From a virus (lineage: Duplodnaviria; Heunggongvirae; Uroviricota; Caudoviricetes; Demerecviridae): a DNA stretch of 64,000 bases. The notes beneath the pieces were generated by a model. That model did not search any database, was not told the DNA's origin, and saw only the letters and a list, made by a program, of their open reading frames with translations. The DNA lies in IMG/VR virus record IMGVR_UViG_3300044984_002785; one strand, given 5' to 3'. The translations under genes and the position numbers were made by a program. Shown here in pieces: positions 8,197 through 28,828 of this stretch. How positions within the stretch are numbered: the first letter of the stretch is position 1; every line of letters begins with the position of its first letter.

Positions 8197-8221
8197 CAAA
8201 GATAGTTAAATAGCTTATAAT
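8193..8221 (+). promoter_or_regulatory. sigma70-type promoter TTGACA-N17-TATAAT
   Basis: TTGACA 8193-8198, 17-nt spacer, TATAAT 8216-8221 overlapping ATG 8220 (leaderless-like arrangement). Confidence 0.45.
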
Positions 8222-8801
8222 GAATACTCGACGACAATATAAACCTGGACCAAATCAAATTGCCAGATACAAAGCTAATACAATGTCAAAAACTAAAGAA
8301 CTCTTTTCCACAATAGAACACCGAACAGTATTTGGTACCCCTCATACTACTAATACTGATAACCCCATTGATTTTCCACAAGATGATGGTTACCCAACGC
8401 CTGAGCAGATTACAGCTATGGCTGAAGAAATTATGATTCGTGGTGCAAAAAAACTATCAGACATAACTAAGTCTGCTGGTACAGCACTTAAATTTGACCA
8501 AGATAAATTACCGCTACATTTGCTTTCAACGGAAGCTATGAATCAAACAGCAGCAGTGCTGGCATTCGGCGCACAAAAATACGCAGAACATAACTGGCGT
8601 AAAGGATTTGCCTGGAGCAGACCCTTAAGCGCAGCAATGCGTCATATTACCGCTTTTAACGCAGGTGAAGATACTGACCCCGAATCGGGACTAAGTCACC
8701 TGGCCCATGCAGCTTGCTGCATTATGTTTCTCCTTGAATTCGAGAAAACTCACCAAGACCTAGATGATAGATATAAACCAGCTGTACCCAGTATTAGCTA
8801 A
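8220..8801 (+). CDS. dATP/dGTP pyrophosphohydrolase-domain (DUF5664-like) protein
   Basis: KFDQDKLPLHLLSTEAMNQTAAVLAFGAQKYAEHNWRKG matches the conserved KYDxGKxxxxLLPxxAL...GAxKYxxxNW core of this phage domain. Confidence 0.45.
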   Translation: MNTRRQYKPGPNQIARYKANTMSKTKELFSTIEHRTVFGTPHTTNTDNPIDFPQDDGYPTPEQITAMAEEIMIRGAKKLSDITKSAGTALKFDQDKLPLHLLSTEAMNQTAAVLAFGAQKYAEHNWRKGFAWSRPLSAAMRHITAFNAGEDTDPESGLSHLAHAACCIMFLLEFEKTHQDLDDRYKPAVPSIS

Positions 8802-8997
8802 AAAATTAGTTAATACCAGAAATACTTTAACAGAAGTGTGTTTAGAACACGATATTGATATACAAGATATTGATATTGATATGCTTGAGACTTTTATAGA
8901 TCAATGTTCTCATTGTAATATTTGGTCTACCAGACTTGTCGCAGACTTAGACGATAATCCCATATGTCCTATATGTGTAAAACTAACTGGATTATAA
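8764..8997 (+). CDS. small Cys-rich (zinc-ribbon-like) protein
   Basis: CSHCN...CPICV paired Cys motifs. Confidence 0.35.
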   Translation: MIDINQLYPVLAKKLVNTRNTLTEVCLEHDIDIQDIDIDMLETFIDQCSHCNIWSTRLVADLDDNPICPICVKLTGL

Positions 8998-10215: not shown

Positions 10216-10862
10216 ATACTTTATTAACAAATATAGTTGACATCACAGACCCTTTAGCTAACAATGACGTAAATAAGTTCAATACCACAGGCTTAAAATT
10301 AGCTGTCGGTTGGAATCACGAAGTAAAAGAAATCGTGGTAATATCTGATCAAATACCAGAAAATTTAGAAAACACATTAATTGATATTTTTAAACAAAAA
10401 TATAGTATTACAGTATTTCCTCAATTTACTGCCAGTTGGGATGCCACAACAGCTACTAATATTATTGATACATATCCAGATTCTCATGTGGATACAAGTT
10501 TTATCAATAGCATAAAAAACATGAATCATGGGTTAAGTAGCAAAGCCATTTGCAGAGTGCTGTCCCATGCTTTAGTTTGGGATTACTGTGTAAAAGCAGA
10601 ACATCCAGTTATTATAATGGAAGCAGGAAGTATTTTAACTAACACTCTGGAAGTACATATACCAAGAAATAGTATTATTAATCTTAGTAATAGTGTTTTA
10701 AATACTGTAAACGTAAATTGGAATAGTTTTCAAGGCATAGATTGTTACAGTGTTGATCAATTTGTATCCAGACAACTATTAAATCATTTATACAAGCAAG
10801 GCATACGAGATAGCCTTAGTAAAATGATACGAGATGATTTATTTTGTATTTGCGAAATATAA
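10212..10862 (+). CDS. glycosyltransferase family 25-like protein (paralogue 2)
   Basis: CRVLSHALVWDYCVKAEHPVIIMEAGSIL aligns with the paralogue 1 block; 4-nt overlap with upstream gene. Confidence 0.4.
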   Translation: MNTLLTNIVDITDPLANNDVNKFNTTGLKLAVGWNHEVKEIVVISDQIPENLENTLIDIFKQKYSITVFPQFTASWDATTATNIIDTYPDSHVDTSFINSIKNMNHGLSSKAICRVLSHALVWDYCVKAEHPVIIMEAGSILTNTLEVHIPRNSIINLSNSVLNTVNVNWNSFQGIDCYSVDQFVSRQLLNHLYKQGIRDSLSKMIRDDLFCICEI

Positions 10863-11632: not shown

Positions 11633-11708
11633 TCTGGCGTTCGTATAATGGATAATACAGCGATCTTCTAAGTCGTGAATATGGGTTCGATTCCTGTACG
11701 CCGGACCA
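11633..11708 (+). tRNA. tRNA-Arg(TCT)
   Basis: Acceptor CTGGCGT/ACGCCGG, anticodon stem GCGAT/GTCGT, loop CTTCTAA, T-loop TTCGATT, ACCA end; T-stem weak. Confidence 0.5.
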
Positions 11709-11774
11709 TTACAAATATTGACTTGTACTATCAGCCTTATTGATATATAATATAGCCTAATTAGGAGAAATAAT

Positions 11775-12098
11775 ATGTCACAATACACACCAGACCGTTG
11801 GGTCGTCTTAGAACTTATAAGTCCCAAACAAACTATTCGCAAAGTATTTGCTGGATGGTATGGTGGGTACTTAGGCAGCGACAGCTGGAAACTGAATTCA
11901 GGAATCACCGACATTCGTGAACAAGATGACTTGTTTGAGTTTGATGGTTATAGCGGAAGCACGTACTTTTGCCACCGTAATAGCTACGGCATGAGTGGCT
12001 ATATGCACTCAGTGTTGACTAGTTGGCTTAACCAAGCCGAGGCTAGCGGTAATGTTCAAATCAATATAATTGAACTTGAAGATATTGTGGCTTTGTGA
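11775..12098 (+). CDS. hypothetical protein
   Basis: 107-aa ORF preceded by TTGACT -35 (11718-11723) with -10 candidates TGATAT (11741-11746) or TATAAT (11747-11752); spacing ambiguous. Confidence 0.45.
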   Translation: MSQYTPDRWVVLELISPKQTIRKVFAGWYGGYLGSDSWKLNSGITDIREQDDLFEFDGYSGSTYFCHRNSYGMSGYMHSVLTSWLNQAEASGNVQINIIELEDIVAL

Positions 12099-12125
12099 TA
12101 TAATATAGACTGATTTGGAGATATT

Positions 12126-12326
12126 ATGGCAGGCTATTCACGCGATTTTTTAATTGATGCTTTTATGTCACGTTACATTCATTGTCAACTAATTACAGTT
12201 GAGCAGCTTGTACACATGGAACAAATGGCAAACGATCTGTTTGATCGAGTTGGTCGCGATAGCTTCCGTACTTATGCTAGCTTAGATGCTGATGCAATTC
12301 GAGTCTATAAAAACAGTATTGACTGA
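12126..12326 (+). CDS. hypothetical protein
   Basis: 66-aa ORF preceded by TATAAT at 12109-12114 with upstream TG at 12106-12107. Confidence 0.4.
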   Translation: MAGYSRDFLIDAFMSRYIHCQLITVEQLVHMEQMANDLFDRVGRDSFRTYASLDADAIRVYKNSID

Positions 12327-12375
12327 TCGTGGCTATTACTGTATAATTAGTTCTTTAAACAAAGTTCCCAGGGAT

Positions 12376-12770
12376 GGGAGAAGATCAGACCAACTACCCG
12401 AGTAACCCTCTGTGGCGAAATATTGTAGCGGTGGCGTAACAACTGACTGAACTAGGCTGTCGCCTTGACCTAGTTCCCATAATTTAATGCTCAGTCGATA
12501 AATTAATAACGGCTGGTCAGTTCTAGATAAGCTCCAGCGGGGTAGTAAGTTGTTGCAACAGCTTACGTTGAGCATTAAATTATGGGAGAGTAGTACGTGG
12601 CGGAATTCGTTCAACTAAGTGCACTCAATCTGATATTTCTAGACTATAGTTCGGACTCTGTGACCTACAGCAATTGGTACATTCCGGTGAATCTAGACCC
12701 TAAATTCGAACACAGGGAAACATATCAGGAAATTTTAGTTATGGTGGTTCGACTCCACCCTCTCCTACCA
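12376..12770 (+). ncRNA. tRNA-like / tmRNA-like structured RNA candidate (3' T-arm + acceptor + ACCA)
   Basis: 12743-12770 GGTGG-TTCGACT-CCACC + CTCTCCT-A-CCA; candidate 5' partners GGGAGAA (12376) and GGGAGAG (12584); 18-bp long-range helix 12476-12493/12569-12586; TAATAA double stop at 12504-12509; 640-nt ORF-free island. Confidence 0.4.
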
Positions 12771-12925
12771 TATTTAAGCATCCTGGCGTGGCCAGCGGTA
12801 ATAAGACTGTGGCTCCGGTGAATGTCCACCTTATTATGTCGCAGCAACAGGTTGTTTAAATATGGTTGCAGCAGACAGGGGTCTAGAACTCTGAATCGAC
12901 TAGGAATAGGTCAGCGACTACCGGT

Positions 12926-13294
12926 ATGTTCCGACCGGCAACCATAATAAATTTTAGGATAAATATGAATACAAAGCATACCCCAGATCACTGGACAATG
13001 TTCAGTTACAGCAATACTGGTACTGATGTAACTTATAAAATTTTGGCATCTTGGGACGACCTTCAGTTTGAGGGTGGCGTAATTTATCAAATCAGCGAAT
13101 CAATTACTAATATTGAAGAAACTGCTCTTAGCTTTATTGTAACAGATAGTTCTCAGGACGTTTTTACTTGCGAAAAAAGCAAGTATGGTTTCACTGAAAT
13201 TACTACGAATATTTTTAACAATATGGTTCAGGCTGAAAGCCAGATTCATCAATGGATGTTAAACGTACCTTTTACAGATATTCATTCCAGTTAA
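12926..13294 (+). CDS. hypothetical protein
   Basis: 122-aa ORF (alternative start at 12965). Confidence 0.45.
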   Translation: MFRPATIINFRINMNTKHTPDHWTMFSYSNTGTDVTYKILASWDDLQFEGGVIYQISESITNIEETALSFIVTDSSQDVFTCEKSKYGFTEITTNIFNNMVQAESQIHQWMLNVPFTDIHSS

Positions 13295-13312
13295 ACATCA
13301 GATAATATAAAC

Positions 13313-13341
13313 TTGATTTTGTTCTATAATTGTTGTATAAT
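13313..13341 (+). promoter_or_regulatory. sigma70-type promoter TTGATT-N17-TATAAT
   Basis: Exact 17-nt spacer, 22 nt upstream of ATG 13364. Confidence 0.45.
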
Positions 13342-13363
13342 TAATACTTAACACACAATAACT

Positions 13364-14362
13364 ATGCACACATTTAATCAAGAAATTAATAGAGTTGGTT
13401 TTGCCTGCAAGATACAAAAATCTCCTGGCGTAGCTGACCCTAAACTTAATACAAAAGCAACTACAATTACATGGCTAAATAAGCAATCCAAAGATGTAGC
13501 TGTAGCTCGTCTTTGGGACTTAATGCGTCATAATATTGATGCGTTGCGTAATCAAATCGTATGGGTAGGCAGTCGAGACTCTAAGCTAAGAATGTTTCGT
13601 ATTACCAGTGATCTTTTGACTGCCTACACTCACGACGACTGGATGTGGTTTTATTTTGAACCAGACGTTCTGCGTTTTTTAGAAACCAATTTAAGTAAAA
13701 TTGGTGAATTAGCCCGCAGCCTTGATGTGCGTTTATCGTTTCATCCAGGTCAATTCTGCGTTTTAGCGAGTGAACATGATGTTATCGTTGATAGGAGTAT
13801 TCTTGAGTTTGAGTACCATTGTGACCTTATCAGATATATGGGTTATGGTAAGCAATTTCAAGACTTTAAGTGCAATGTACATATCGGAGGTAAACGAGGA
13901 CCTCTTGGGATTCAAACTGCATTAAAAAAGCTGAGTCCAGAAGCTAGAAATTGTTTGACTATTGAAAATGCCGAGTTTACTTGGGGACTAGATGCTAGTC
14001 TGGAGTTAGCCAAAGACTGTGCCTTAGTATTAGATATTCATCATAACTGGATTAATACTGGTGAGTACATTGAGCCTAGTGATTCAAAGTTTCAAAAAGT
14101 TATTGATAGTTGGCGAGGCGTTAGGCCTGTTATACACTATTCCGTATCACGTGAAGATGTGCTAGTAGACCATGATCCTCTAACAAAACCTGACTTTAAA
14201 TTACTTAAATCTACAGGTTATACATCAGCTAAGCTCCGTGCTCACAGTGACTACTACTGGAATCAACCAGTAAATACTTGGGCCTTGACATTTAGTCCTT
14301 ATGCTGATATAATGTGTGAATCAAAAGAAAAAAACTTGGCTGTTGACGATTTTTTAATTTAA
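13364..14362 (+). CDS. UvdE-like / xylose-isomerase-like TIM-barrel endonuclease (tentative)
   Basis: 332 aa; LRMFRITSDLLTAY parallels UvdE IKLFRISSEIFPFA; size fits UV-damage endonuclease / AP-endonuclease family 2. Confidence 0.35.
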   Translation: MHTFNQEINRVGFACKIQKSPGVADPKLNTKATTITWLNKQSKDVAVARLWDLMRHNIDALRNQIVWVGSRDSKLRMFRITSDLLTAYTHDDWMWFYFEPDVLRFLETNLSKIGELARSLDVRLSFHPGQFCVLASEHDVIVDRSILEFEYHCDLIRYMGYGKQFQDFKCNVHIGGKRGPLGIQTALKKLSPEARNCLTIENAEFTWGLDASLELAKDCALVLDIHHNWINTGEYIEPSDSKFQKVIDSWRGVRPVIHYSVSREDVLVDHDPLTKPDFKLLKSTGYTSAKLRAHSDYYWNQPVNTWALTFSPYADIMCESKEKNLAVDDFLI

Positions 14363-14424
14363 TTGTTGCGATTCCGACAACCGCATCGGATAAGATTTGT
14401 TAGTTTGCTTCCCTAAACTAATAT

Positions 14425-14498
14425 CTCGGTGTAGTGAAATGGCATCACTCGTGCTTTGGGAGCATGGAGCGCAAGTTCGATTCTTGCCATCGAGACCA
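14425..14498 (+). tRNA. tRNA-Pro(TGG)
   Basis: Acceptor CTCGGTG/CATCGAG, D-stem GTGA/TCAC, anticodon loop TTTGGGA, T-arm GCAAG-TTCGATT-CTTGC, ACCA. Confidence 0.7.
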
Positions 14499-14687
14499 TT
14501 TTAATTTGTATGTTGCTAGATTCCGGTTCAGTCGCGGAGCTTTATGTACTTGAGACATGATACACCTAGGAAGGTATCGTGGTATGGTATGAGTCTTGGA
14601 ACAGGTCTGTGTCATGAACAGAATAAGCCAAGACCACAGCCTTAGCGGGTTGGGTAGTAAACAGCATACAAACTAAAATGAAATTAT

Positions 14688-14771
14688 GCGTTGGTGGTGG
14701 AATGGTATACACGCTGGTCTTAGAAGCCAGTGCCGAAAGGATTGAGAGTTCGAGTCTCTCTCGACGCACCA
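14688..14771 (+). tRNA. tRNA-Leu(TAG), class II
   Basis: Acceptor GCGTTGG/TCGACGC, anticodon loop CTTAGAA, long variable arm, T-arm GAGAG-TTCGAGT-CTCTC, ACCA. Confidence 0.7.
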
Positions 14772-14776
14772 TATTA

Positions 14777-14852
14777 GGGGAATTAGCTCAGCTGGGAGAG
14801 CGGCTGCTTTGCAAGCAGTAGGTCAACGGTTCGATCCCGTTATTCTCCACCA
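14777..14852 (+). tRNA. tRNA-Ala(TGC)
   Basis: GGGGAAT...TAGCTCAGCTGGGAGAGC D-arm, anticodon loop TTGCAAG, T-arm AACGG-TTCGATC-CCGTT, ACCA. Confidence 0.75.
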
Positions 14853-15110
14853 AATCAAAAAAGGATATTATGAAATATCAGTTTATTAAAGCAAGTTGGT
14901 TTAGTGGTACTCCATTTATTTGGAACGCAGTACAATCAAGCAATAATACACAGGCTAGAATTTTTAGATTCGGCCCTATCTTACTCAGAGTAGAAAAATG
15001 AAAACACCCAAACCTAGGAATCACGTTGTTTTAGCTTTAATGAAGCGAAATGGTAGTGGTTCACATCAAAAAAGCCACAAACAGCTTCGTGGCAAATGGA
15101 AGCGTAGCCT

Positions 15111-15185
15111 GGACGTATAACTTAGCGGCTAAAGTAACTGGCTTTTAACCAGTAAATCAGAGTTCGATTCTCTGTGCGTCCACCA
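15111..15185 (+). tRNA. tRNA-Lys(TTT)
   Basis: Acceptor GGACGTA/TGCGTCC, anticodon stem ACTGG/CCAGT, loop CTTTTAA, T-arm CAGAG-TTCGATT-CTCTG, ACCA. Confidence 0.75.
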
Positions 15186-15304
15186 TATTTGAGCATATTA
15201 ACAGATGGCGTTCAACCACTTGTTTAATCCTTGCAAGGCAACACGTTTACGGGAACAAAGTACAAGTTCCAAAAGTGGATGTTAGTATGCTCAAATATGG
15301 TCAT

Positions 15305-15396
15305 AGCTCTATAGTTTAATGGTAAAACGGCGGATTTATATCCCGTAAGCAACAGATAATTGGTTCATCTGGGTTCGAGTCCCGGTGGAGCTACCA
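15305..15396 (+). tRNA. atypical tRNA, probable anticodon TAT (Ile) with 22-nt extra region
   Basis: Acceptor AGCTCTA/TGGAGCT, D-stem GTTT/AAAC, anticodon loop TTTATAT (U33, A37), T-arm CTGGG-TTCGAGT-CCCGG, ACCA; variable region 22 nt and may pair (CAGAT...ATCTG). Confidence 0.4.
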
Positions 15397-15400
15397 ATAC

Positions 15401-15487
15401 GGAAGATGTGCTGCAAGGTGCGGCAGGAGTTTGCTAAACTCTCGTTCAGAAATGGGCTGACAGGTTCGATTCCTGTATCTTCCGCCA
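15401..15487 (+). tRNA. tRNA-Ser(GCT), class II
   Basis: Acceptor GGAAGAT/ATCTTCC, anticodon GGAGT-TTGCTAA-ACTCT, long variable arm, T-arm ACAGG-TTCGATT-CCTGT, GCCA. Confidence 0.75.
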
Positions 15488-15505
15488 AATAACAAAAGGA
15501 TTATT

Positions 15506-15730
15506 ATGCCTTGTATGAAATGCGCTAATGGTAAGTATAAATATGGTGAACATGGAAAATGTGTTTACGATACTCTAGCTGCGTGCAAACGTGCCGCTGC
15601 AGCAATACATATTCATGAACCAGGCCCACATGGGCCTATTCCTAGTACTGAACCAGCTAAAACAGCGGCAGCAATGTCACCTTGGCACGATTCTAGTTGT
15701 AAATGCTCTAAGTGCTTAAAGAAATCTTAG
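15506..15730 (+). CDS. small Cys-rich protein embedded in tRNA array
   Basis: 74 aa with 8 Cys (CMKC...CKCSKC); RBS-like AAAGGA upstream. Confidence 0.45.
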   Translation: MPCMKCANGKYKYGEHGKCVYDTLAACKRAAAAIHIHEPGPHGPIPSTEPAKTAAAMSPWHDSSCKCSKCLKKS

Positions 15731-15732
15731 GT

Positions 15733-15806
15733 GTGGCTATAGTGTAATGGTTAGCACCCGAGATTGTGATTCTTTTAGTCTGAGTTCGATCCTCAGTAGT
15801 CACCCC
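15733..15806 (+). tRNA. tRNA-His(GTG)
   Basis: Acceptor GTGGCTA/TAGTCAC, D-stem GTGT/GCAC, anticodon loop TTGTGAT, T-arm CTGAG-TTCGATC-CTCAG; no encoded G-1, 3' end CC-T. Confidence 0.6.
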
Positions 15807-16068
15807 TAAGATATTTTTACACTTGAAAAAATTAACCGAATCTAGTATAATTATGAATCAAATACAAGTTTTATTAGATAAAGAAGCAGAATTAGGTAAT
15901 AGACGTTATTACATATTACAACAGATTAAAGCACAGCGGGGTACACAGCCACCGCATTGTTGGGGAATGGACGACTGTTCAACCCTAACGCTTAGTCAGT
16001 GTCCTTGGCGTATAGATTGTGGCGAACATGAGTCACAAGTTTACCAAGAACAATTATCATTATTTTAA

Positions 16069-16144
16069 GCCGCGATAGCTCATCAGGTAGAGCAGCAGAC
16101 TGAAAATCTGTGTGTGGCTGGTTCGAGTCCAGTTCGCGGTACCA
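16069..16144 (+). tRNA. tRNA-Phe(GAA)
   Basis: GCCGCGATAGCTCATCAGGTAGAGCA, anticodon loop CTGAAAA, T-loop TTCGAGT, acceptor 3' TCGCGGT-A-CCA. Confidence 0.75.
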
Positions 16145-16149
16145 AATAC

Positions 16150-16224
16150 GCGCTTGTAGCTCAGAGGAAGAGCATTCGCTTGATAAGCGAAAGGCCGACA
16201 TTTCGAAATTGTCCAAGCGTACCA
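16150..16224 (+). tRNA. tRNA-Ile(GAT)
   Basis: GCGCTTGTAGCTCAGAGGAAGAGCA, anticodon TTCGC-TTGATAA-GCGAA, acceptor 3' CAAGCGT-A-CCA. Confidence 0.7.
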
Positions 16225-16305
16225 GTAACTATCTAGATACTCTAATTCTAGTAACTCTGCGAATCGGGTTAGAATTCGCACAACACACAACACAGGAGAC
16301 TACTA

Positions 16306-16538
16306 TGTCCAACAAATCCCCTTTTGAAATTCGTCTTGAAATCCTCAAGATGACCGCAGAACTTATGAAATCTGAGTATGAATCCAATATGGAATTCATT
16401 ACTGAAATGCAAGAAAATCTAGCTGACAAAGGGTTAAACACCCAGGCTATGATTGAAAAATTTATGCCAAAACCATTTAGTTTTGATGAAATGCTGGCAA
16501 AGTCCAAGCAGTTCTATGAGTTTGTAAATGCTAAGTGA
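16306..16538 (+). CDS. hypothetical protein (77 aa)
   Basis: ORF track 16110-16538 trimmed to first ATG downstream of tRNA-Ile (MSNKSPFEIRLEIL...). Confidence 0.45.
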
Positions 16539-16728
16539 GTTAATGCAGCGTGTACAGGAAGTATTCAAGCCTTACACGATGGACGACTTTATGAATGACG
16601 GTTGCCCACAAGATCATGCAGATGTTCAAAGACTTGAACTTGTCTGGCAGTCTTACCAAAACCGAAAACTTTTCAATACCTGTTACTAAATTTTACGCTC
16701 AAAGGGAAACCTTTGGGCGTTTTGGCCT

Positions 16729-17250
16729 ATGCAACTAAATTATAATGAATATGCAGACAAAATAGATTTAAAATATTCTATTATTCAAGGTTTGCTGGTA
16801 GAAGATGTATCAGGTGTGCTGACTGTGTCTACTGATTTTAAACCAAATACTATTTATTTAAATAAGTATAATAGAACAGCAGCTATCATAGTAGCTGAAA
16901 AAGAATATATAGGAAGACCGTATATTCTTAAAAAGTCGGACTGTATTAAATTAGTCAATGAGTGGCTAGATGACAGACTAAATACCGACTACGTAAAAAG
17001 ATACAAAGAAACTGACAATAGACAGTTTAAAAGATATTACGCCGAAGGTGTAAAGTACGCATATTTAGATAATGGATTTACAGAAGTTGTTGATCAATCT
17101 ATGAATGTAGGAGACGTATTATTATATACTACTAATCTTCATGTTGCAGTGTATGTAGGTAATAATACAATTTTACATCATTTGCCGCGTAAACTATCTT
17201 GTTATGATACTTTAGATAGTGCAAGTATACTAGGAGTATATAGACCATGA
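16729..17250 (+). CDS. NlpC/P60-family peptidase-like protein
   Basis: KKSDCIKLVNEWL (catalytic Cys context) and GDVLLYTTNLHVAVYVGNNTILHH (His context) in NlpC/P60 order. Confidence 0.45.
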   Translation: MQLNYNEYADKIDLKYSIIQGLLVEDVSGVLTVSTDFKPNTIYLNKYNRTAAIIVAEKEYIGRPYILKKSDCIKLVNEWLDDRLNTDYVKRYKETDNRQFKRYYAEGVKYAYLDNGFTEVVDQSMNVGDVLLYTTNLHVAVYVGNNTILHHLPRKLSCYDTLDSASILGVYRP

Positions 17251-25717: not shown

Positions 25718-25721
25718 TTTA

Positions 25722-26318
25722 TTGAAGGAATTTATGACAAAAACAAGTATTCTAGACCCTAAGCTGTTTCAAACAGACAAGTATTCAAATAACTTCACAA
25801 AATCAGTTGCACACATTCATGAATTTTATCTAACTGGTGAAATTGGTGATGCTGAAGAATACATTGAGTGGTTTGATATTATCCGTAATGCCAGTGCAGT
25901 AGACAGTATTCGCATTTACATTAACAGTCCGGGTGGTGATCTTTTTACTACCTTACAGTTTTTACGTGTTATGTCAGATACTGAAGCCACAGTAACTACT
26001 AGTGTTGAAGGCGCTTGTATGAGTGCTGCAACCATGATCTTTTTACATGGTCATACACAAGAAGTAACCCCCCACAGCCTGTTCATGTTTCACGACTATT
26101 CGTCTGGTACATTTGGTAAAGGCGGTGAACAATATGACCAGATTCAGTTTGAGCGTGGTTGGTCTCGTAAGTTTTTAACAGAAGTCTACACAGGTTTCTT
26201 AACTGATGCCGAAATTGAGTCAATGATGCACAACAAAGACATTTGGATGGACTCAGAAGAAGTTGTTAAGCGTTTAACCGTATTACATAAGGCTCGCGAA
26301 GCCGAAGCCAAAGAATAA
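25722..26318 (+). CDS. ClpP-family (S14) serine protease-like protein
   Basis: YINSPGGDLF, GACMSAATMIF (Ser context), SLFMFHDY (His context) in ClpP order; AAGGA RBS 25711; begins 5 nt after the tmRNA locus. Confidence 0.5.
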   Translation: MKEFMTKTSILDPKLFQTDKYSNNFTKSVAHIHEFYLTGEIGDAEEYIEWFDIIRNASAVDSIRIYINSPGGDLFTTLQFLRVMSDTEATVTTSVEGACMSAATMIFLHGHTQEVTPHSLFMFHDYSSGTFGKGGEQYDQIQFERGWSRKFLTEVYTGFLTDAEIESMMHNKDIWMDSEEVVKRLTVLHKAREAEAKE

Positions 26319-26437
26319 ATATCGCGGGGATTCAGGGTATCAGTAAGTCTCATAAGCTCAACTGTGGTCGTTTCGAATACACCCCCCGCAACCAATAACA
26401 CGGCTAAACCCTCTGCGTGAGTACGGTTTAGTTTTCA

Positions 26438-26529
26438 GGAAAGTAATGCAGCGGGGTTGGTCCTGCGACCAGCCTTGAAAACTGGGTTCTCTTAACAGGG
26501 ATGGGGTTCGACTCCTCTGCTTTCCGCCA
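26438..26529 (+). tRNA. tRNA-Ser(TGA), class II
   Basis: Acceptor GGAAAGT/GCTTTCC, anticodon loop CTTGAAA, long variable arm, T-loop TTCGACT, G-CCA. Confidence 0.6.
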
Positions 26530-26596
26530 TAAGTAAGTCTATTGATAACAACGAGCTAATACGCGTTAAAGTGCTTGTAACTTAGTAGGCTTTCTT

Positions 26597-26911
26597 ATGG
26601 CTATTTCATTTTCAAAACTAAAATCACCCTTGCTAGGCATGACTGACAATATACTGGTCGGCAAACTAGCTGGATGCCGCGTATGCGACGTTATTCCCGA
26701 TCACTACGAATATTTGATTTGGGCAGATAAACAAGGTTTGTTAAAATTTCAAGCAATTGTTGTTGAAACTATTGCAGAACACGCTGGATTTAAGTCGCAG
26801 CAGCAATATTACACAGAAGAAGTAGAGCCTTTTATTACTAAAGAGCCTAAATTACGAGAAACCAACGAACCTCCTTATTTAGACGACTACTTTGATGATA
26901 TACCATTTTAA
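26597..26911 (+). CDS. hypothetical protein
   Basis: 104-aa ORF; stop abuts tRNA-Gly. Confidence 0.45.
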   Translation: MAISFSKLKSPLLGMTDNILVGKLAGCRVCDVIPDHYEYLIWADKQGLLKFQAIVVETIAEHAGFKSQQQYYTEEVEPFITKEPKLRETNEPPYLDDYFDDIPF

Positions 26912-26912
26912 T

Positions 26913-26988
26913 GCGTGCTTAGCTCAGTTGGTAGAGCACTTCGTTGCCAACGAAGATGTCGCAGGTTCGAACCCTGTAGCCCGCACCA
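26913..26988 (+). tRNA. tRNA-Gly(GCC)
   Basis: GCGTGCTTAGCTCAGTTGGTAGAGCA, anticodon CTTCG-TTGCCAA-CGAAG, T-arm GCAGG-TTCGAAC-CCTGT, acceptor 3' AGCCCGC-A-CCA. Confidence 0.7.
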
Positions 26989-27021
26989 CTTTTTAACCCG
27001 CGCCAAACATACAAAAACACA

Positions 27022-27228
27022 ATGTATAAAATATACTACTCAGACGAACATGATAACGCTAGTGCGTATAATGTTAGTGAACTAAAGACTGCACTATCGG
27101 CTGTGGAAGCCTTACGTCAGGTAGGGTATAAGTATGTAACCTTGGTTAGTGATTATGCCGACATGGTTGGTAAGCCTGGCGTAAAAGCCGCAGGTACAGA
27201 GTGCATCCCACAAATGTTGAATCCTTAA
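27022..27228 (+). CDS. hypothetical protein
   Basis: 68-aa ORF. Confidence 0.4.
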   Translation: MYKIYYSDEHDNASAYNVSELKTALSAVEALRQVGYKYVTLVSDYADMVGKPGVKAAGTECIPQMLNP

Positions 27229-27236
27229 ATCTACAC

Positions 27237-27265
27237 TTGACCCTAAGCTGAATCTTTGATATAAT
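27237..27265 (+). promoter_or_regulatory. sigma70-type promoter TTGACC-N17-TATAAT
   Basis: Contains the recurrent TTGACCCTAA motif; immediately upstream of ORF 27267. Confidence 0.4.
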
Positions 27266-27266
27266 T

Positions 27267-27497
27267 ATGTCTATGAAACACAAATTCAATATCAAACCAC
27301 TTAGTCCAGAAATGAACACGCCACGAGCCACTACCCGACCACCAAGTCGCGTAACTGCTGGTGGAAGTACGGCTTTAAAAGAGATTCCAGTATATACCGG
27401 TACAGAAATGATCGGTATTTCAATTATTCACAAGAGCTGCTTGCAGCCAGTATTCAGTCGCGAAGCTGCCGTTGATGCAGCTAGTATGCGACGTTAA
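27267..27497 (+). CDS. hypothetical protein
   Basis: 76-aa ORF. Confidence 0.4.
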   Translation: MSMKHKFNIKPLSPEMNTPRATTRPPSRVTAGGSTALKEIPVYTGTEMIGISIIHKSCLQPVFSREAAVDAASMRR

Positions 27498-27500
27498 TTT

Positions 27501-27574
27501 GCAGGGTTGGTATAGTGGCTGTGCTCTAGCCTTCCAAGCTAGTGAGGCGAGTTCGATCCTCGCACCCTGCTCCA
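27501..27574 (+). tRNA. tRNA-Gly(TCC)
   Basis: Acceptor GCAGGGT/ACCCTGC (perfect), anticodon CTAGC-CTTCCAA-GCTAG, T-arm GGCGA-GTTCGATC-CTCGC, T-CCA. Confidence 0.75.
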
Positions 27575-27575
27575 T

Positions 27576-27650
27576 GCATCCTTAGCTCAGAGGTAGAGCG
27601 GCTGCTTTACACGCAGCGGGTCGGCAGTTCGAAACTGTCAGGATGTACCA
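27576..27650 (+). tRNA. tRNA-Val(TAC)
   Basis: GCATCCTTAGCTCAGAGGTAGAGCG, anticodon GCTGC-TTTACAC-GCAGC, T-arm GGCAG-TTCGAAA-CTGTC, acceptor 3' AGGATGT-A-CCA. Confidence 0.75.
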
Positions 27651-27739
27651 AACACAACCGCTAAGGATATGAGTACCTGCGCAGGATCGTCCAGGGGATG
27701 CGGCACTTAGGGTTACCCTTGACCCTAAACTATTTAAAC

Positions 27740-27783
27740 TTGACACAAATCCCCGAATAGAGTATAATAACTACTATTCGGGG
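27740..27783 (+). promoter_or_regulatory. consensus sigma70 promoter TTGACA-N17-TATAAT overlapped by 11-bp palindrome (operator-like)
   Basis: TTGACA 27740-27745, TATAAT 27763-27768; TCCCCGAATAG (27750-27760) and CTATTCGGGGA (27774-27784) flank the -10 element. Confidence 0.55.
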
Positions 27784-27794
27784 ATTATTACATT

Positions 27795-28349
27795 ATGGCA
27801 AACATTTTTTTCGCATCAGACCACCATTTCCATCATAAAAATATTCTTGGTTTTAAGAATAGTGACGATACTCCATTACGAGTATTTGATGATGTTGACC
27901 ACATGAATGAACACATGGTTTACTGCCACAACCGTGTAGTAAAACCCACCGACAAAGTTTATTTTATAGGCGACGTATCTATGAGTCGCAATGCCAAGGG
28001 TCTAGAAATTCTTGGGCGCATGAATGGCGAAAAGGTCTTGATCAAAGGCAATCATGATCTAGCTAACGCTAATCAATATTTACAGTATTTCAAAGATATT
28101 CGTGGTAGTCATCAATTTGATGGAATGATTCTAACACATATTCCAATTCATCCTGAGAGTCTAGCACGTTGGGGATTGAATGTACATGGCCACTTACACA
28201 ATAATACTGTAATGCTTCGTGGGTTTGCAGATAAGCCTGTTGAACCTGACTCTAGGTATTTTAATGTGTCTATGGAAAGAATTAATTTTACTCCTATCTC
28301 CCTAGAGGAAGTTAAAAAGTATGTTAGATTGCCTGATTCTAGGAGATAG
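27795..28349 (+). CDS. metallophosphoesterase / Ser-Thr phosphatase-like protein
   Basis: ASDHHFHH, YFIGDVSMS, IKGNHD phosphoesterase motifs. Confidence 0.5.
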   Translation: MANIFFASDHHFHHKNILGFKNSDDTPLRVFDDVDHMNEHMVYCHNRVVKPTDKVYFIGDVSMSRNAKGLEILGRMNGEKVLIKGNHDLANANQYLQYFKDIRGSHQFDGMILTHIPIHPESLARWGLNVHGHLHNNTVMLRGFADKPVEPDSRYFNVSMERINFTPISLEEVKKYVRLPDSRR

Positions 28350-28716
28350 TATTGCACAAGGTATTGCTCAGCATCGTCCTGAGTGTGCCCTATATGCACG
28401 TCAAGGTATAACCAGCTATAATTGGAATAAAAGGTATCTAGGCTTAGGCCTAGATGCTAAACATACTATTATTAGTCTAGGAAGCAATGACGATTGGTGG
28501 GCTGAAAAGACTTCCAAGGAACTTACAGACATACGCTCAAATTTAAGTGGACATGTAACATGGATTCTTCCTGCTAATAAATCAAATAGTCGAACCGCTG
28601 TACGAGCCGTAGCTAAAACATTTAATGACCTAGTTTTAGAAATACCCGAAACCATACAAGATAAGGTTCATCCTAGTGCACGAGCATACCGTACACTAGC
28701 AAATCAAACGCGCTGA
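28321..28716 (+). CDS. SGNH/GDSL-family hydrolase
   Basis: ILGDSIAQG (block I GDS) and SLGSNDDWW (block III) motifs. Confidence 0.5.
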   Translation: MLDCLILGDSIAQGIAQHRPECALYARQGITSYNWNKRYLGLGLDAKHTIISLGSNDDWWAEKTSKELTDIRSNLSGHVTWILPANKSNSRTAVRAVAKTFNDLVLEIPETIQDKVHPSARAYRTLANQTR

Positions 28717-28784
28717 TAGCTTAATGGTAAAGCGTCCGACTCATAATCGGTTGAGTCTAGGTTCAATTCCTAGTCAGCGCACCA
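28710..28784 (+). tRNA. tRNA with CAT anticodon (Met or lysidine-Ile)
   Basis: Acceptor GCGCTGA/TCAGCGC (perfect), D-arm GCTT-AATGGTA-AAGC, anticodon loop CTCATAA, T-arm CTAGG-TTCAATT-CCTAG, ACCA; overlaps the last codons of the upstream CDS. Confidence 0.65.
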
Positions 28785-28828
28785 CTTATCCCAGCTTAGG
28801 CTGGGATTTTTGTTTCAAAAATATTTTC

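What the first reader, a model, noticed from the sequence alone, without database searches (positions are those of the whole stretch)
11633..28784. About 27 tRNA genes in several clusters with atypical members, interleaved with RNA-biology genes
tRNAs read by eye: Arg(TCT), Pro, Leu(TAG), Ala, Lys, TAT-anticodon tRNA, Ser(GCT), His, Phe, Ile(GAT), Met, Trp, Tyr, Leu(TAA), Asn, Gln, Arg(ACG), Cys, Thr, Ser(TGA), Gly(GCC), Gly(TCC), Val and a second CAT tRNA. Oddities: the TAT-anticodon tRNA (15305-15396) has a 22-nt extra region that may form a stem; tRNA-Trp has a T1-T72 acceptor mismatch; tRNA-His lacks an encoded G-1; a T-arm-only remnant sits at 23125-23195. Small protein genes (Cys-rich 15506-15730; RNase-H-fold-like 23410-23877; tiny basic ORFs 14870-15121) are embedded between tRNAs. 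The set spans most amino acids, typical of large virulent phages compensating for codon-usage mismatch; Ro60 and tmRNA inside the array suggest wider tRNA-centric RNA manipulation.
Basis: seen in the sequence. Interest (0 to 1): 0.5.

Follow-up and report, generated by a model that had tools for sequence, protein, structure and literature searches.

The report
Phage tRNA island with Y-RNA genes

Summary
Window 11634-28784 carries 25 same-strand tRNA genes for 19 amino acids (Glu is missing), a permuted two-piece tmRNA followed by a ClpP-like gene, a Ro60 (TROVE+vWA) gene and a PF04308 RNase-H-like gene. The phage is T5-like. Twenty uncultured relatives share the island.

- tRNA(UAU) has a conserved extra arm.
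- tRNA-Trp has U1.U72.
- tRNA-His has no encoded G-1.

- tRNA-Asp was missed. It has an unusual core: A8/U14 and A54/U58.
- Ser(UGA) is real, though default ARAGORN misses it.

The main new result concerns the "T-arm-only remnant". It is a conserved, covarying structured RNA of about 110 nt. It belongs to a family with a common frame: terminal stem, UAG(C/U)GA(A), helix, GUUACUUC, variable payload, helix, UUC(U/C).

- The window has three clear copies and probably a fourth, all within 1.4 kb of Ro60 on its strand.
- The same frame sits beside Ro60 genes in unrelated Xanthomonas, Microcystis, Caulobacter and crAss-like phages, and weakly in alphaproteobacterial MAGs.
- Full-size relatives match Rfam YrlA below its threshold.

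These are most likely Ro60-bound Y RNAs. An unclassified 180-nt structured RNA and an initiator-tRNA-like element also lie in the island.

Overall this is a new variant of known kinds, of moderate interest.

The parts
11634..11708 (+). tRNA-Arg(TCT)
   Evidence: ARAGORN; Rfam tRNA 49.7 bits.
14425..14498 (+). tRNA-Pro(TGG). A perfect-consensus sigma-70 promoter lies upstream at 14285-14313.
14499..14678 (+). Unclassified structured RNA of about 180 nt: a 17-bp closing stem and four hairpins.
   Evidence: Seven homologues give 53 pairs, 32 of them with compensatory changes. No Rfam hit at E<=10. No GenBank phage homologue.
14688..14852 (+). tRNA-Leu(TAG) at 14688-14771 and tRNA-Ala(TGC) at 14777-14852.
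14998..15120 (+). 40-aa basic ORF, always placed just 5' of tRNA-Lys.
   Evidence: 75-90% identical in 11 relatives (L019 44%).
15111..15185 (+). tRNA-Lys(TTT)
   Evidence: 69 bits.
15305..15396 (+). tRNA(UAU) with a 22-nt extra arm: a short stem with a bulged G and a CAGAUAA loop. It has A73 and an A31.C39 mismatch.
   Evidence: 55 bits. Conserved in 9 relatives, with different arm stems but the same loop motif. A 93-nt homologue is annotated tRNA-Ile in Vibrio Thalassavirus phages. ATA codons behave as Ile codons.
15401..15487 (+). tRNA-Ser(GCT)
   Evidence: ARAGORN. In Rfam only the Sec model matches, at 34.9 bits. RF00005 gives about 55 bits in relatives.
15733..15806 (+). tRNA-His(GTG) without an encoded G-1. 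Base -1 is T, C73 is present, and the 3' end reads CCC then T.
16069..16224 (+). tRNA-Phe(GAA) at 16069-16144 and tRNA-Ile(GAT) at 16150-16224. Relatives have Glu(TTC) between these two genes; the window does not.
20015..20089 (+). tRNA(CAT) number 1. A1-U72 is paired, so it is not an initiator.
20227..20460 (+). Probable large Y-like RNA (type D). It has a 12-20 bp terminal stem, UAGCGA, GUUACUUC, several hairpins, and AUUCU at the 3' side. It starts just after the promoter at 20189-20217.
   Evidence: Alifold on 4 homologues gives 63 pairs, 14 of them compensatory. Motif positions. Promoter. Model R2 does not find it.
20461..20565 (+). Y-like RNA (type B, diverged). It lies in the Ro60 5' leader and ends 15 nt before the start codon. 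It has a terminal stem, UAGUGAA, a helix GAAACAA/UUGUUUC, AUUACUUC, a T-loop hairpin, a second hairpin, and a GG-loop hairpin.
   Evidence: R2 42.4 bits, E 2.5e-7. The MFE fold gives exactly this layout. Relatives' copies are YrlA-like.
20581..21891 (+). Ro60 / TROVE + vWA protein, 436 aa.
   Evidence: Pfam TROVE 33.8 bits and vWA_Ro60 30.8 bits. phrog_850 at E 5e-41. Thermus phage phiLo Ro60 (9KOP/9L5Y) at E 3.5e-21.
21952..22050 (+). Mini Y-like RNA (type C). It has a 19-bp terminal stem, UGGUG, a helix GAUACAG/CUGUAUC, GUUACUUC and a small loop. It ends 4 nt before tRNA-Trp.
   Evidence: z-score -6.9. R2 77 bits. Family structure is 89% paired against 32-49% when slid.
22055..22128 (+). tRNA-Trp(CCA) with a U1.U72 mismatch.
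   Evidence: The mismatch is shared only with L001; other relatives have A1-U72 or G1.U72.
22190..22282 (+). tRNA-Tyr(GTA), 93 nt, with a 5-bp D stem and a long variable region.
   Evidence: The same form occurs in L001 and L003.
22413..22499 (+). tRNA-Leu(TAA)
22587..22661 (+). tRNA-Asp(GTC) with an unusual core: A8, U14, C15, and T loop AUCGUUA (A54, U58).
   Evidence: ARAGORN only; no Rfam hit. The D arm and T loop are essentially unchanged in 14 relatives (one D-loop substitution, in L015), while the acceptor and anticodon stems show compensatory changes. The same tRNA is present, unannotated, in Ralstonia phage RSP15.
23035..23109 (+). tRNA-Asn(GTT)
23115..23230 (+). It has a terminal stem, UAGCGAA, a helix, GUUACUUC, a T-arm mimic, and a hairpin with a UGG(A)U loop.
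   Evidence: Alignment A1. 14 of 18 pairs are compensatory, and 97% of cells pair against 54% or less when slid. R1 116 bits. R2 46.8 bits.
23239..23401 (+). tRNA-Gln(TTG) at 23239-23313, with U1.U72, G73 and CCA, and tRNA-Arg(ACG) at 23325-23401.
23410..23877 (+). PF04308 'RNase H-like' protein of unknown function.
   Evidence: Pfam 62.3 bits. phrog_11311. 76-99% identical in 12 relatives.
24084..24239 (+). tRNA-Cys(GCA) at 24084-24158 and tRNA-Thr(TGT) at 24164-24239.
25262..25703 (+). Two-piece (permuted) tmRNA with tag ANDQTYALAA and G3.U70 in the acceptor stem.
   Evidence: ARAGORN. Rfam RF04321 108 bits and RF01850 99.6 bits. Sequence.
25734..26318 (+). ClpP-like protease subunit, next to the tmRNA in the relatives where both lie in the fetched DNA (L019 excepted).
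   Evidence: Pfam CLP_protease 46.6 bits. phrog_1827 at E 2e-59. Synteny.
26323..26394 (+). Initiator-tRNA-like element. It reads CGCGGGG...CCCCGCAACCA, with C1xA72, A73 and CCA, and has anticodon loop CUCAUAA. There is no normal D stem. The T arm is degenerate in the window.
   Evidence: Alignment of 10 copies, 9 of 18 pairs compensatory. ARAGORN calls it tRNA-Met only at an 80% threshold.
26438..26529 (+). tRNA-Ser(TGA) with A8, C31.A39 and U49.U65.
   Evidence: Rfam Sec model 35 bits. 12 relatives show compensatory acceptor, anticodon and variable stems. ARAGORN calls it at a 90% threshold.
26913..26988 (+). tRNA-Gly(GCC)
27501..27650 (+). tRNA-Gly(TCC) at 27501-27574 and tRNA-Val(TAC) at 27576-27650.
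28710..28807 (+). tRNA(CAT) number 2 at 28710-28784, followed by an intrinsic terminator at 28788-28807 that closes the island.
   Evidence: (73.7 bits).

Best explanation
**Identity.** The region is the early-region RNA island of an uncultured T5-like siphophage. The host is inferred to be a betaproteobacterium.

**Transcription and processing.** The island is read rightwards from several strong sigma-70 promoters. It is probably cut into its parts by the host's tRNA-processing enzymes (inferred).

**Contents**
1. A near-complete minimal set of 25 tRNAs, one per codon box with U34 or G34. It suits the phage's A/U-ending codons and would keep translation going whatever happens to host tRNAs.
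2. A two-piece tmRNA with a ClpP-like subunit next to it, for ribosome rescue and removal of tagged peptides.
3. A Ro60 protein with three or four cognate Y-RNA-like genes.

**Y-like RNA design.** All copies share one frame: a terminal stem; an internal loop carrying UAG(C/U)GA(A), which resembles the CGAA Ro60-binding motif; a covarying helix; the invariant GUUACUUC; and a variable payload.
- In relatives the payload can be a full permuted tRNA mimic (T arm, closed acceptor hairpin, D arm), which is YrlA-like.
- In the window copy at 23115-23230 it is a T arm plus a GG-loop hairpin.
- In the window copy at 21952-22050 it is almost nothing.

**Proposed function, by analogy.** By analogy with Rsr/YrlA and with Thermus phage phiLo Ro60/Yrl, these RNAs most likely bind Ro60 through the frame. 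The payload would then recruit or block tRNA-binding enzymes or host exoribonucleases such as PNPase.

**Shown versus inferred.** Shown: the genes, the RNA structures, and their genomic linkage to Ro60. Inferred: Ro60 binding, RNA processing and biological role.
For: **tRNAs and tmRNA:**

**T5-like context:** PolA, DnaB, NAD-dependent ligase, SbcCD, RNR, ThyA and a long tail fibre. PolA is 49% identical to Vibrio T5-like phages.

**Relatives:** twenty uncultured relatives were fetched; nineteen show tRNA arrays around Ro60 (none was called in L018) and most lay them out like the window; the tmRNA is next to ClpP wherever both lie in the fetched DNA, except L019.

**Ro60 identity:**

**Y-like RNA structures**
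- Type A: 14 of 18 pairs compensatory; 97% paired against 54% or less when slid.
- Minis: 89% paired against 32-49% when slid; covariation score 0.67 against 0.15 or less.

**Linkage to Ro60**
- With filters off, the only significant R2 hits in the 64-kb window are at 20462, 21968 and 23122.
- In the whole 43-kb Xanthomonas phage genome, the only significant hits lie in the 680-nt gap just upstream of its Ro60.
- R2 also hits beside TROVE genes in crAss-like cr106_1, CcrColossus and L018, and weakly in Microcystis phage Mvi-JY20, which carries two GUUACUUC copies just downstream of its Ro60, and in alphaproteobacterial MAGs.
- GUUACUUC copies on the + strand cluster around Ro60 in the T5-like loci (L018 has one, at the edge of the fetched DNA), mostly within about 2 kb.
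- A T5-like tRNA region without Ro60 (Vibrio phage Gary) has no hits.

**YrlA likeness**
- L007 9867-9972 scores 35 bits, E 2e-6, over the full model length.
- Hits of 30-56 bits lie next to Ro60 in four other genomes.

**Published parallels**
- YrlA lies within 4 kb of Ro60 on the same strand and has a GNCGAA motif near its 5' end (PMC4201824).
- Phage phiLo Ro60 binds two upstream Yrl RNAs through a CGAA motif and engages PNPase (PMC12135203).

**Promoters and terminator:**. **Codon usage:**
Against: - No window copy reaches any Rfam threshold. Relatives' copies stay below the YrlA gathering score of 69.
- The most conserved motif, GUUACUUC, is not the published Ro60-binding motif. In several copies the CGAA-like motif reads UGAA or GUG.
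- Ro60 binding, expression and RNA ends are untested.
- Ralstonia phage RsoM2USA has the closest GenBank Ro60 (54%), yet it shows no motif copy within 4 kb.
- The host is unknown, so no codon-usage comparison could be made.
Confidence: 0.75

Rival explanations
1. The island is simply a codon-compensation tRNA set of a large virulent phage. The T-arm element and similar pieces are decayed tRNA pseudogenes or spacer debris with no link to Ro60.
For: - The phage has GC3 of 0.28 and uses AUA, AGA, UUA and CUA heavily.
- Arrays of this kind are usual in T5-like phages, for example about 20 tRNAs in Vibrio phage Gary.
- Relaxed ARAGORN calls 23106-23188 a defective tRNA.
Against: - The elements are conserved, with compensatory changes in helices that no tRNA has.
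- They share a non-tRNA motif.
- They travel with Ro60 in unrelated phages that have no tRNA array.
- An intact Leu(AAG) gene sits beside the element in L001.
Confidence: 0.1
2. The tRNA set exists mainly as a counter-defence. It would replace host tRNAs that are cleaved or depleted during infection. On this view the odd members evolved to escape host tRNA-targeting nucleases or modification-dependent recognition. The odd members are the swapped-core Asp, the extra-arm Ile(UAU), the His without G-1, the A8 Ser(UGA) and the initiator-like element.
For: - The set is near-complete, with one tRNA per codon box, rather than limited to rare codons.
- The odd features are conserved under purifying selection.
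- The odd Asp is shared with an unrelated Ralstonia phage.
- From general knowledge, not tested here: phage tRNAs that resist host anticodon nucleases have been reported.
Against: - There is no direct evidence here.
- The anticodon loops of the odd tRNAs look ordinary.
- No host or defence system has been identified.
- This view is compatible with the best explanation rather than exclusive of it.
Confidence: 0.3
3. The extra-arm tRNA(UAU) is charged with leucine or serine by a synthetase that ignores the anticodon. AUA would then be recoded or read ambiguously, as proposed for nematode nev-tRNA(UAU).
For: - It has a long variable arm, A73 and an A15/U48 pair.
- It lacks C4-G69 and C29-G41, which the phage's own Ile(GAT) has.
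- The nematode precedent is PMC3333845.
Against: - In orthologue alignments ATA exchanges with ATT (35), ATC (8) and GTA (12). It rarely exchanges with TTA (7) or CTA (6), and no Ser codon is among the ten commonest partners.
- The D arm is class I type.
- GenBank homologues sit next to Ile(GAT) and are annotated as Ile.
Confidence: 0.08
4. The Y-like elements are cis-acting processing or regulatory structures of the Ro60 and tRNA transcripts, such as RNase entry sites, leaders or terminators. They are not free RNAs that partner with Ro60.
For: - Type B lies in the Ro60 leader, 15 nt from the start codon.
- The mini element ends in a U-rich tract directly before tRNA-Trp.
- All copies lie in the same transcription direction.
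Against: - The copy at 23115-23230 lies 1.2 kb away, between two tRNAs.
- Unrelated phages keep two to five tandem copies.
- The tRNA-mimic payloads match YrlA.
- A cis role and Ro60 binding are not mutually exclusive; autoregulation is possible.
Confidence: 0.15

Closest known systems
tRNA gene cluster of T5-like phages (Demerecviridae), e.g. Vibrio phage Gary (Thalassavirus)
   Same: - About 20-25 same-strand tRNA genes are interleaved with small ORFs in the early region.
- Both carry a 93-nt tRNA-Ile(UAU) whose extra arm has the same sequence, GCAACAGAUAAUUGG.
- Both have a T5-like replication module.
   Different: - The fetched 12-kb tRNA region of Gary has no Ro60 and no Y-like RNAs, and ARAGORN finds no tmRNA there.
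- PolA identity is only 49%, and there is no nucleotide-level similarity.
Salmonella/actinobacterial YrlA Y RNAs with Rsr (Rfam RF02553; Chen et al. 2014, PMC4201824)
   Same: - The genes lie beside Ro60 on the same strand.
- The 5' and 3' ends pair.
- A CGAA-like motif lies near the 5' end.
- There is a permuted tRNA mimic in the order T arm, closed acceptor hairpin, D arm. Relatives' type B copies align to the full model.
   Different: - Scores of 30-56 bits are below the gathering score of 69, and the window copies do not hit at all.
- There is an extra invariant GUUACUUC motif.
- Each genome has several paralogues, including forms with a reduced tRNA-like domain or none.
Thermus phage phiLo Ro60 with Yrl1/Yrl2 (PMC12135203; PDB 9KOP, 9L5Y)
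   Same: - It is the closest solved homologue of the window's Ro60 (E 3.5e-21).
- Two Y-like RNAs are encoded just upstream of Ro60.
- Each has a terminal stem and an internal bulge carrying CGAA.
   Different: - It is a different phage type.
- The paper does not mention a tRNA array or a GUUACUUC motif.
- Binding and PNPase engagement were shown there and are only inferred here.
Cluster C1 mycobacteriophages (Bxz1/ET08-like): tRNA array + tmRNA + Ro60 + YrlA
   Same: - They combine about 34 tRNAs with a tmRNA (PMC13097058, as listed).
- They have a Ro60 orthologue with a YrlA-like RNA (PMC4201824).
   Different: - They are myoviruses of Actinobacteria with high-GC genomes.
- From general knowledge, their tmRNA is one-piece.
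- Their Y RNA is a standard YrlA.
Two-piece tmRNA of Betaproteobacteria and of phages (Rfam RF01850/RF04321; OM43 methylophage, PMC9004378)
   Same: - The gene order is permuted.
- The acceptor stem has G3.U70.
- The tag ends in ALAA.
- The window's tmRNA scores above both gathering thresholds.
   Different: - It lies inside a T5-like tRNA island.
- It is followed by a ClpP-like gene in the relatives where both lie in the fetched DNA, L019 excepted.
Nematode nev-tRNA(UAU) (PMC3333845)
   Same: Both are tRNAs with a long variable arm and a UAU anticodon.
   Different: - The nematode tRNA is eukaryotic and is charged with Leu in vitro.
- Here the D arm is class I type, and AUA codons behave as Ile codons.

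Membership tests
Phage tRNA gene array (T5-like) | Many clustered, same-strand genes that pass tRNA cloverleaf or covariance tests. | tested here: met
   24 by ARAGORN and 21 by Rfam RF00005. A 25th, Ser-UGA, is supported by covariation.
Phage tRNA gene array (T5-like) | Phage context with a T5-type replication and tail module. | tested here: met
   PHROG hits to PolA, DnaB, NAD-dependent ligase, SbcCD, RNR, ThyA and long tail fibre. PolA is 49% identical to Vibrio T5-like phages.
Ro60 / Rsr (TROVE family) | A TROVE (HEAT-repeat ring) domain followed by a vWA domain. | tested here: met
   PF05731 33.8 bits (cut-off 23) and PF25045 30.8 bits (cut-off 27.7). phiLo Ro60 aligns over residues 40-432 at E 3.5e-21.
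YrlA-type Y RNA (RF02553) | Encoded within about 4 kb of Ro60 on the same strand. | tested here: met
   All window copies lie within 1.4 kb of Ro60 on the + strand.
YrlA-type Y RNA (RF02553) | A terminal 5'/3' stem with a GNCGAA/CGAA motif near the 5' end. | tested here: inconclusive
   The terminal stem covaries. The motif reads UAGCGAA in types A and D, UAGUGAA in type B and UGGUG in type C.
YrlA-type Y RNA (RF02553) | A tRNA-like domain in the order T arm, closed acceptor hairpin, D arm. | tested here: inconclusive
   Clear in relatives' type B. In the window, type B has degenerate versions, type A has a T arm plus a GG hairpin only, and type C has none.
YrlA-type Y RNA (RF02553) | Reaches the Rfam gathering score of 69 bits. 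| tested here: not met
   No window hit. Relatives score 30-56 bits.
YrlA-type Y RNA (RF02553) | Binds Ro60. | not testable with these tools
   Needs gel-shift or RIP experiments.
Two-piece (permuted) tmRNA | Acceptor piece placed before the coding piece, alanine identity pair G3.U70, a resume codon and a tag reading frame. | tested here: met
   ARAGORN reports it as permuted, with tag ANDQTYALAA. RF04321 108 bits (gathering score 47) and RF01850 99.6 bits (gathering score 84). G3.U70 was read.
tRNA-Ile (bacterial, AUA-reading) | UAU anticodon, A37, A73, and codon AUA used as Ile. | tested here: met
tRNA-Ile (bacterial, AUA-reading) | Class I body (4-5 nt variable loop) and the E. coli-type IleRS elements C4-G69 and C29-G41. 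| tested here: not met
   It has a 22-nt arm, U4-A69 and G29-C41. The identity elements themselves are taken from general knowledge.
Bacterial tRNA-His | A genome-encoded G-1 opposite C73. | tested here: not met
   Base -1 is T and C73 is present. Some relatives (L006-L009, L019) do encode G-1.
Bacterial initiator tRNA | C1xA72 mismatch, A73 and a CAU anticodon. | tested here: met
   26323-26394 and 9 relatives.
Bacterial initiator tRNA | Three consecutive G-C pairs closing the anticodon stem, and a normal D arm. | tested here: not met
   The stem is AGC/GCU plus GGC/GCC with an internal loop, and there is no clear D stem.

The most novel reading that the evidence does not exclude
The frame R-G-Y-G-A ... 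GUUACUUC ... U-U-C-Y would define a widespread, so far undescribed subfamily of phage Y RNAs. In it, one Ro60-binding scaffold carries interchangeable payloads: none, a tRNA elbow, a full tRNA mimic, or a multi-hairpin domain of about 170 nt. Each phage encodes several of these, so one Ro60 could be directed to different targets.

On the same reading, the non-canonical tRNAs and the 180-nt RNA would form a coordinated phage kit for taking over or shielding translation from host RNA-targeting defences. The non-canonical tRNAs are the swapped-core Asp, the extra-arm Ile(UAU) and the armless initiator-like tRNA.
Probability: 0.3. Interest if true: 0.75.

Novelty: new variant of a known kind. Interest (0 to 1): 0.55.

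Why it matters
**Y RNAs and annotation**
- Phage tRNA arrays, phage tmRNAs and phage Ro60/Y RNA pairs are each known already.
- Here they occur together in a T5-like lineage.
- The Y-like RNAs form a recognisable, modular family that current RNA libraries miss and that annotators mislabel as tRNAs. One example is the 'tRNA-Thr' upstream of Ro60 in Xanthomonas phage 10KY502B.
- A simple sequence frame for finding Ro60 partner RNAs in phages would make the unresolved role of viral Ro60 directly testable.

**Odd tRNAs**
- The conserved odd tRNAs are ready test cases for how much the tRNA core can change and still work.
- They can also test whether phages alter tRNAs to escape host enzymes.
- The cases are Asp with the 8-14 and 54-58 tertiary pairs swapped, Ile(UAU) with an extra arm, and an initiator-like tRNA without a D stem.

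Tried and rejected
**Searches that found nothing useful**
- A megablast of the island against GenBank phages matched only single tRNAs.
- Rfam searches for YrlA or Y_RNA in the window gave nothing. This covered the whole island at E<=1 and two small stretches at E<=10. The weak YrlA hit at 24113-24205 is just tRNA-Cys and tRNA-Thr.
- The 180-nt RNA has no Rfam match and no GenBank phage match.
- Relaxed ARAGORN at an 80% threshold produces many obvious false calls on both strands. It was used only to see how known elements score.

**Ideas tested and rejected**
- The 459-aa ORF next to the extra-arm tRNA-Ile in Vibrio phage Gary is not a Ro60.
- The T-arm element is not a decayed Leu(AAG); L001 has both.
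- AUA is not recoded to Leu or Ser by the extra-arm tRNA, according to the codon-substitution pattern.
- GUUACUUC counts alone are not significant in the window: 5 observed against 2.8 expected. The evidence is the motif's position, its strand and the surrounding structure.
- The promoter scan finds no more sites overall than chance. Only the perfect or near-perfect + strand sites are used, and only as context.

**Limits on some analyses**
- MAFFT did not align the divergent extra arms of tRNA(UAU) in register. No pair-count test was run on them, and the stems were read directly.
- Type D could not be captured by model R2. Its 3' boundary rests on a four-sequence alifold.
- The host was not identified. 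The single genome-collection scan went to Ro60 relatives.

Full report
**1. The observation**

ARAGORN finds 24 tRNA genes and one permuted tmRNA in the window. All are on the + strand between 11634 and 28784. Rfam's tRNA model confirms 21 of them at 50-74 bits. The tmRNA passes both the permuted-tmRNA model (108 bits) and the betaproteobacterial two-piece model (99.6 bits).

Ser(GCT), Tyr and an extra locus at 26438-26529 match only the tRNA-Sec model, below threshold.
- Twelve relatives keep it, with compensatory changes in the acceptor, anticodon and variable stems.
- ARAGORN calls it once its threshold is lowered to 90%.

The firm total is 25 tRNA genes for 19 amino acids.
- Glu is absent here but present in relatives.
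- Gln runs 23239-23313 and does encode CCA.

**2. Context**

The rest of the window encodes a T5-type set: PolA, a DnaB-like helicase, split NAD-dependent ligase, SbcCD, ribonucleotide reductase, thymidylate synthase and a 1673-aa tail fibre.
- PolA is 49% identical to those of Vibrio T5-like phages.
- There is no nucleotide-level relative in GenBank.
- Using Ro60 as bait, twenty IMG/VR contigs were fetched, the longest about 100 kb. Their Ro60 proteins are 52-94% identical.
- Most of them lay the island out like the window. Ro60 lies between tRNA(CAT) and tRNA-Trp in L002-L014. The more distant L015-L019 order their tRNAs differently, and no tRNA was called in L018. A permuted tmRNA sits next to a ClpP-like gene wherever both lie in the fetched DNA, except in L019, where they are about 11 kb apart.
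- Near-perfect sigma-70 promoters on the + strand and a strong terminator right after the last tRNA frame the island. The promoter count as a whole is no higher than chance.

**3. The atypical tRNAs**

*tRNA(UAU).* Its 22-nt extra region is real.
- Nine relatives have it.
- Four diverged versions (L006, L012, L019 and Vibrio phage Gary) build the arm from different base pairs but keep the loop (C/U)AGAU(A/U).
- A homologous 93-nt gene is annotated tRNA-Ile in 43 Vibrio T5-like (Thalassavirus-type) phage records.
- It lacks C4-G69 and C29-G41, which the phage's own Ile(GAT) has. That raised the possibility of charging by LeuRS or SerRS, as in nematode nev-tRNA(UAU) (PMC3333845).
- In orthologue alignments, however, ATA exchanges with ATT, ATC and GTA. 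It rarely exchanges with Leu codons, and no Ser codon is among its ten commonest partners.
- AUA therefore means Ile, and the tRNA is most likely an Ile tRNA with an added arm.

*tRNA-Trp.* U1.U72 is a recent change shared only with L001. Other relatives have A1-U72 or G1.U72.

*tRNA-His.* It has T at -1, C73, and CCC-T at the 3' end, so G-1 is not encoded. Some relatives do encode it.

*tRNA-Asp.* This is the strangest member.
- It has A8 with U14, C15, and the T loop AUCGUUA (A54, U58). The two conserved reverse-Hoogsteen pairs therefore appear swapped.
- Apart from one D-loop substitution in L015, these features are the same in 14 relatives, while the acceptor and anticodon stems covary.
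- The same tRNA sits unannotated in Ralstonia phage RSP15.
- Rfam does not see it.

*tRNA-Tyr.* It is 93 nt long, with a 5-bp D stem.

**4. The 'T-arm remnant' is a Y-RNA-like gene**

The element at 23115-23230 has homologues in 12 relatives.
- Its three helices (a closing helix, a T-arm mimic, and a hairpin with a UGG(A)U loop) are 97% paired. When the partners are slid, pairing falls to 54% or less.
- 14 of 18 pairs show compensatory change.
- In L003, L016 and L019 the same element lies directly upstream of Ro60.

A covariance model of it (R1) also picked up weaker, full-length matches.
- These lie immediately upstream and downstream of Ro60 in nearly every relative.
- One lies upstream of the Ro60 gene of Xanthomonas phage 10KY502B, where GenBank annotates it as 'tRNA-Thr'.

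Aligned, the upstream copies are permuted tRNA mimics. In order, each has:
- a helix and GUUACUUC;
- a short arm and a T arm;
- a closed acceptor-like hairpin;
- a canonical D arm, GUAGCUCAGUUGGUAGAGC;
- the closing helix.

This is the published YrlA layout (PMC4201824).
- One copy aligns to the whole Rfam YrlA model at 35 bits, E 2e-6.
- Copies beside Ro60 in the Xanthomonas phage, in CcrColossus and in two alphaproteobacterial MAGs score 30-56 bits.
- All of these are below the gathering score of 69.

**5. The common frame**

Short copies of 58-75 nt lie downstream of Ro60. They keep only the following:
- a terminal stem;
- U(A/G)G(U/C)G;
- a 7-bp helix;
- GUUACUUC and a small loop;
- the return strand of the helix;
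- UUC(C/U) and the closing strand of the terminal stem.

This structure is 89% paired against 32-49% when slid, with a covariation score of 0.67 against 0.15 or less.

A model of this frame (R2) gave these results:
- In the 64-kb window with filters off, it finds only three significant sites, at 20462, 21968 and 23122. All are within 1.4 kb of Ro60 on its strand.
- In the complete 43-kb Xanthomonas phage genome, the only significant hits lie in the gap upstream of Ro60.
- It also hits beside TROVE genes in crAss-like phage cr106_1, Caulobacter phage CcrColossus and L018. It hits weakly in Microcystis phage Mvi-JY20 (E 0.098), which carries two GUUACUUC copies just downstream of its Ro60, and in alphaproteobacterial MAGs.
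- A T5-like tRNA region without Ro60 has none.

The 5' motif UAG(C/U)GAA resembles two published motifs: the GNCGAA motif of YrlA, and the CGAA motif through which Thermus phage phiLo Ro60 binds its two upstream Yrl RNAs (PMC4201824, PMC12135203). phiLo Ro60 is also the closest solved homologue of this protein.

**6. Window copies**

- Type B (20461-20565) folds into a terminal stem, a helix, a T-loop hairpin, a second hairpin and a GG-loop hairpin.
  - Its helix carries a compensated G-C to A-U change relative to L001.
  - It ends 15 nt before the Ro60 start codon, so a role in autoregulation is possible (inference).
- Type C (21952-22050) has a 19-bp terminal stem (z-score -6.9) and ends 4 nt before tRNA-Trp.
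- Type A (23115-23230) lies between tRNA-Asn and tRNA-Gln.
- A probable fourth copy, type D (20227-20460), starts just after a promoter.
  - It carries UAGCGA, GUUACUUC and a 3' AUUCU inside a long terminal stem.
  - Model R2 does not capture it.

The tight packing against tRNAs suggests that the ends of these RNAs are made by tRNA-processing enzymes (inference).

**7. Mechanism**

The following are shown:
- the genes;
- the RNA secondary structures;
- their linkage to Ro60 across unrelated phages.

The following are inferred from Rsr/YrlA and from phiLo:
- the frame binds Ro60;
- the payloads present tRNA-like surfaces to tRNA enzymes or exoribonucleases such as PNPase;
- the complex acts in RNA quality control or in hijacking host RNA decay.

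The tRNA set has one U34 or G34 tRNA per codon box. It fits the phage's A/U-ending codons (GC3 0.28), and with Glu it would be a complete minimal decoder. It therefore fits both codon compensation and independence from host tRNAs. The conserved tmRNA-ClpP pair suggests that the phage supplies both the tagging RNA and a protease subunit (inference).

**8. Other structured RNAs in the island**

- 14499-14678 is an RNA of about 180 nt with a 17-bp closing stem and four hairpins.
  - 32 of 53 pairs are compensatory across seven homologues.
  - It has no Rfam match and no GenBank phage match.
- 26323-26394 is an initiator-tRNA-like element.
  - It has the acceptor stem of E. coli tRNAfMet (C1xA72, A73, CCA) and the loop CUCAUAA.
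  - It has no D stem and lacks the three G-C pairs.
  - It is conserved in nine relatives and degenerate in the window.
- Further closed-stem spacers lie at 15186-15298, 22283-22405, 22504-22580 and 22662-22875.

**9. Verdict**

The array is real and ordinary for a T5-like phage. The Ro60, tmRNA and tRNA combination has precedent in cluster C1 mycobacteriophages. The new elements are these:
- the modular, multi-copy Y-like RNA family that Rfam misses;
- the conserved odd tRNAs;
- an unclassified 180-nt RNA.

I class the finding as a new variant of known kinds, with moderate interest.

Noticed in passing
window 14499-14678: A structured RNA of about 180 nt lies between tRNA-Pro and tRNA-Leu(TAG). 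32 of 53 pairs are compensatory in seven homologues. It has no Rfam match and no GenBank phage match. Its class and function are unknown.
   Followed up: partly
window 26323-26394; L007 8969-9055 and 8 other loci: An initiator-tRNA-like element with the tRNAfMet acceptor stem (C1xA72, A73, CCA) and loop CUCAUAA. It has no D stem and an extended anticodon arm. In the window its T arm is degenerate and it sits after ClpP; in most relatives it sits upstream of tRNA(CAT) number 1.
   Followed up: partly
window 22587-22661; L028 2495-2570 (Ralstonia phage RSP15): A tRNA-Asp with swapped tertiary pairs (A8/U14, A54/U58). It is conserved in the clade and is also present, unannotated, in an unrelated Ackermannviridae phage of Ralstonia. 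This hints at a betaproteobacterial host.
   Followed up: partly
L022 3768-3835 (Xanthomonas phage 10KY502B); L025 2173-2240 (CcrColossus): In the Xanthomonas phage the gene annotated 'tRNA-Thr' just upstream of the TROVE gene is a Y-like RNA. In CcrColossus the 'tRNA-Gln' upstream of the TROVE gene overlaps a weak YrlA match and may be one too. Y-like RNAs can be mislabelled as tRNAs in public records.
   Followed up: partly
L026 189-4526 (crAss-like phage cr106_1): An unrelated phage packs the same kinds of parts into about 4.5 kb: tRNA-Arg, an 88-nt tRNA-Ile(GAT) with a long extra arm, a tmRNA, a TROVE gene and two Y-like frames.
   Followed up: no
window 15186-15298, 22283-22405, 22504-22580, 22662-22875: Other tRNA spacers fold into structures closed by long terminal stems, for example 18 bp at 15186-15298. 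Their homologues are mostly too similar to test covariation.
   Followed up: partly
window 8220-10862 and 5344-6255: A MazZ-like dATP/dGTP diphosphohydrolase domain (PF18909), two family-25 glycosyltransferase-like ORFs and a thymidylate synthase lie here. They may indicate a DNA base modification system.
   Followed up: no
window 14998-15120: A 40-aa, very basic ORF (MKTPKPRNHVVLALMKRNGSGSHQKSHKQLRGKWKRSLDV) is conserved at 75-90% in 11 relatives (44% in L019). It always lies directly 5' of tRNA-Lys and overlaps its start.
   Followed up: partly
window 16729-19966: A block of ORFs, including an NlpC/P60-like protein, has weak counterparts almost only in L003. It replaces what relatives carry upstream of tRNA(CAT) number 1, which suggests a local gene replacement inside the island.
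   Followed up: no
window 16144-16150: Glu(TTC) sits between Phe and Ile(GAT) in relatives L004 and L006-L009, and elsewhere in the array in several others. It is absent from the window's array, leaving the phage without a Glu tRNA.
   Followed up: yes
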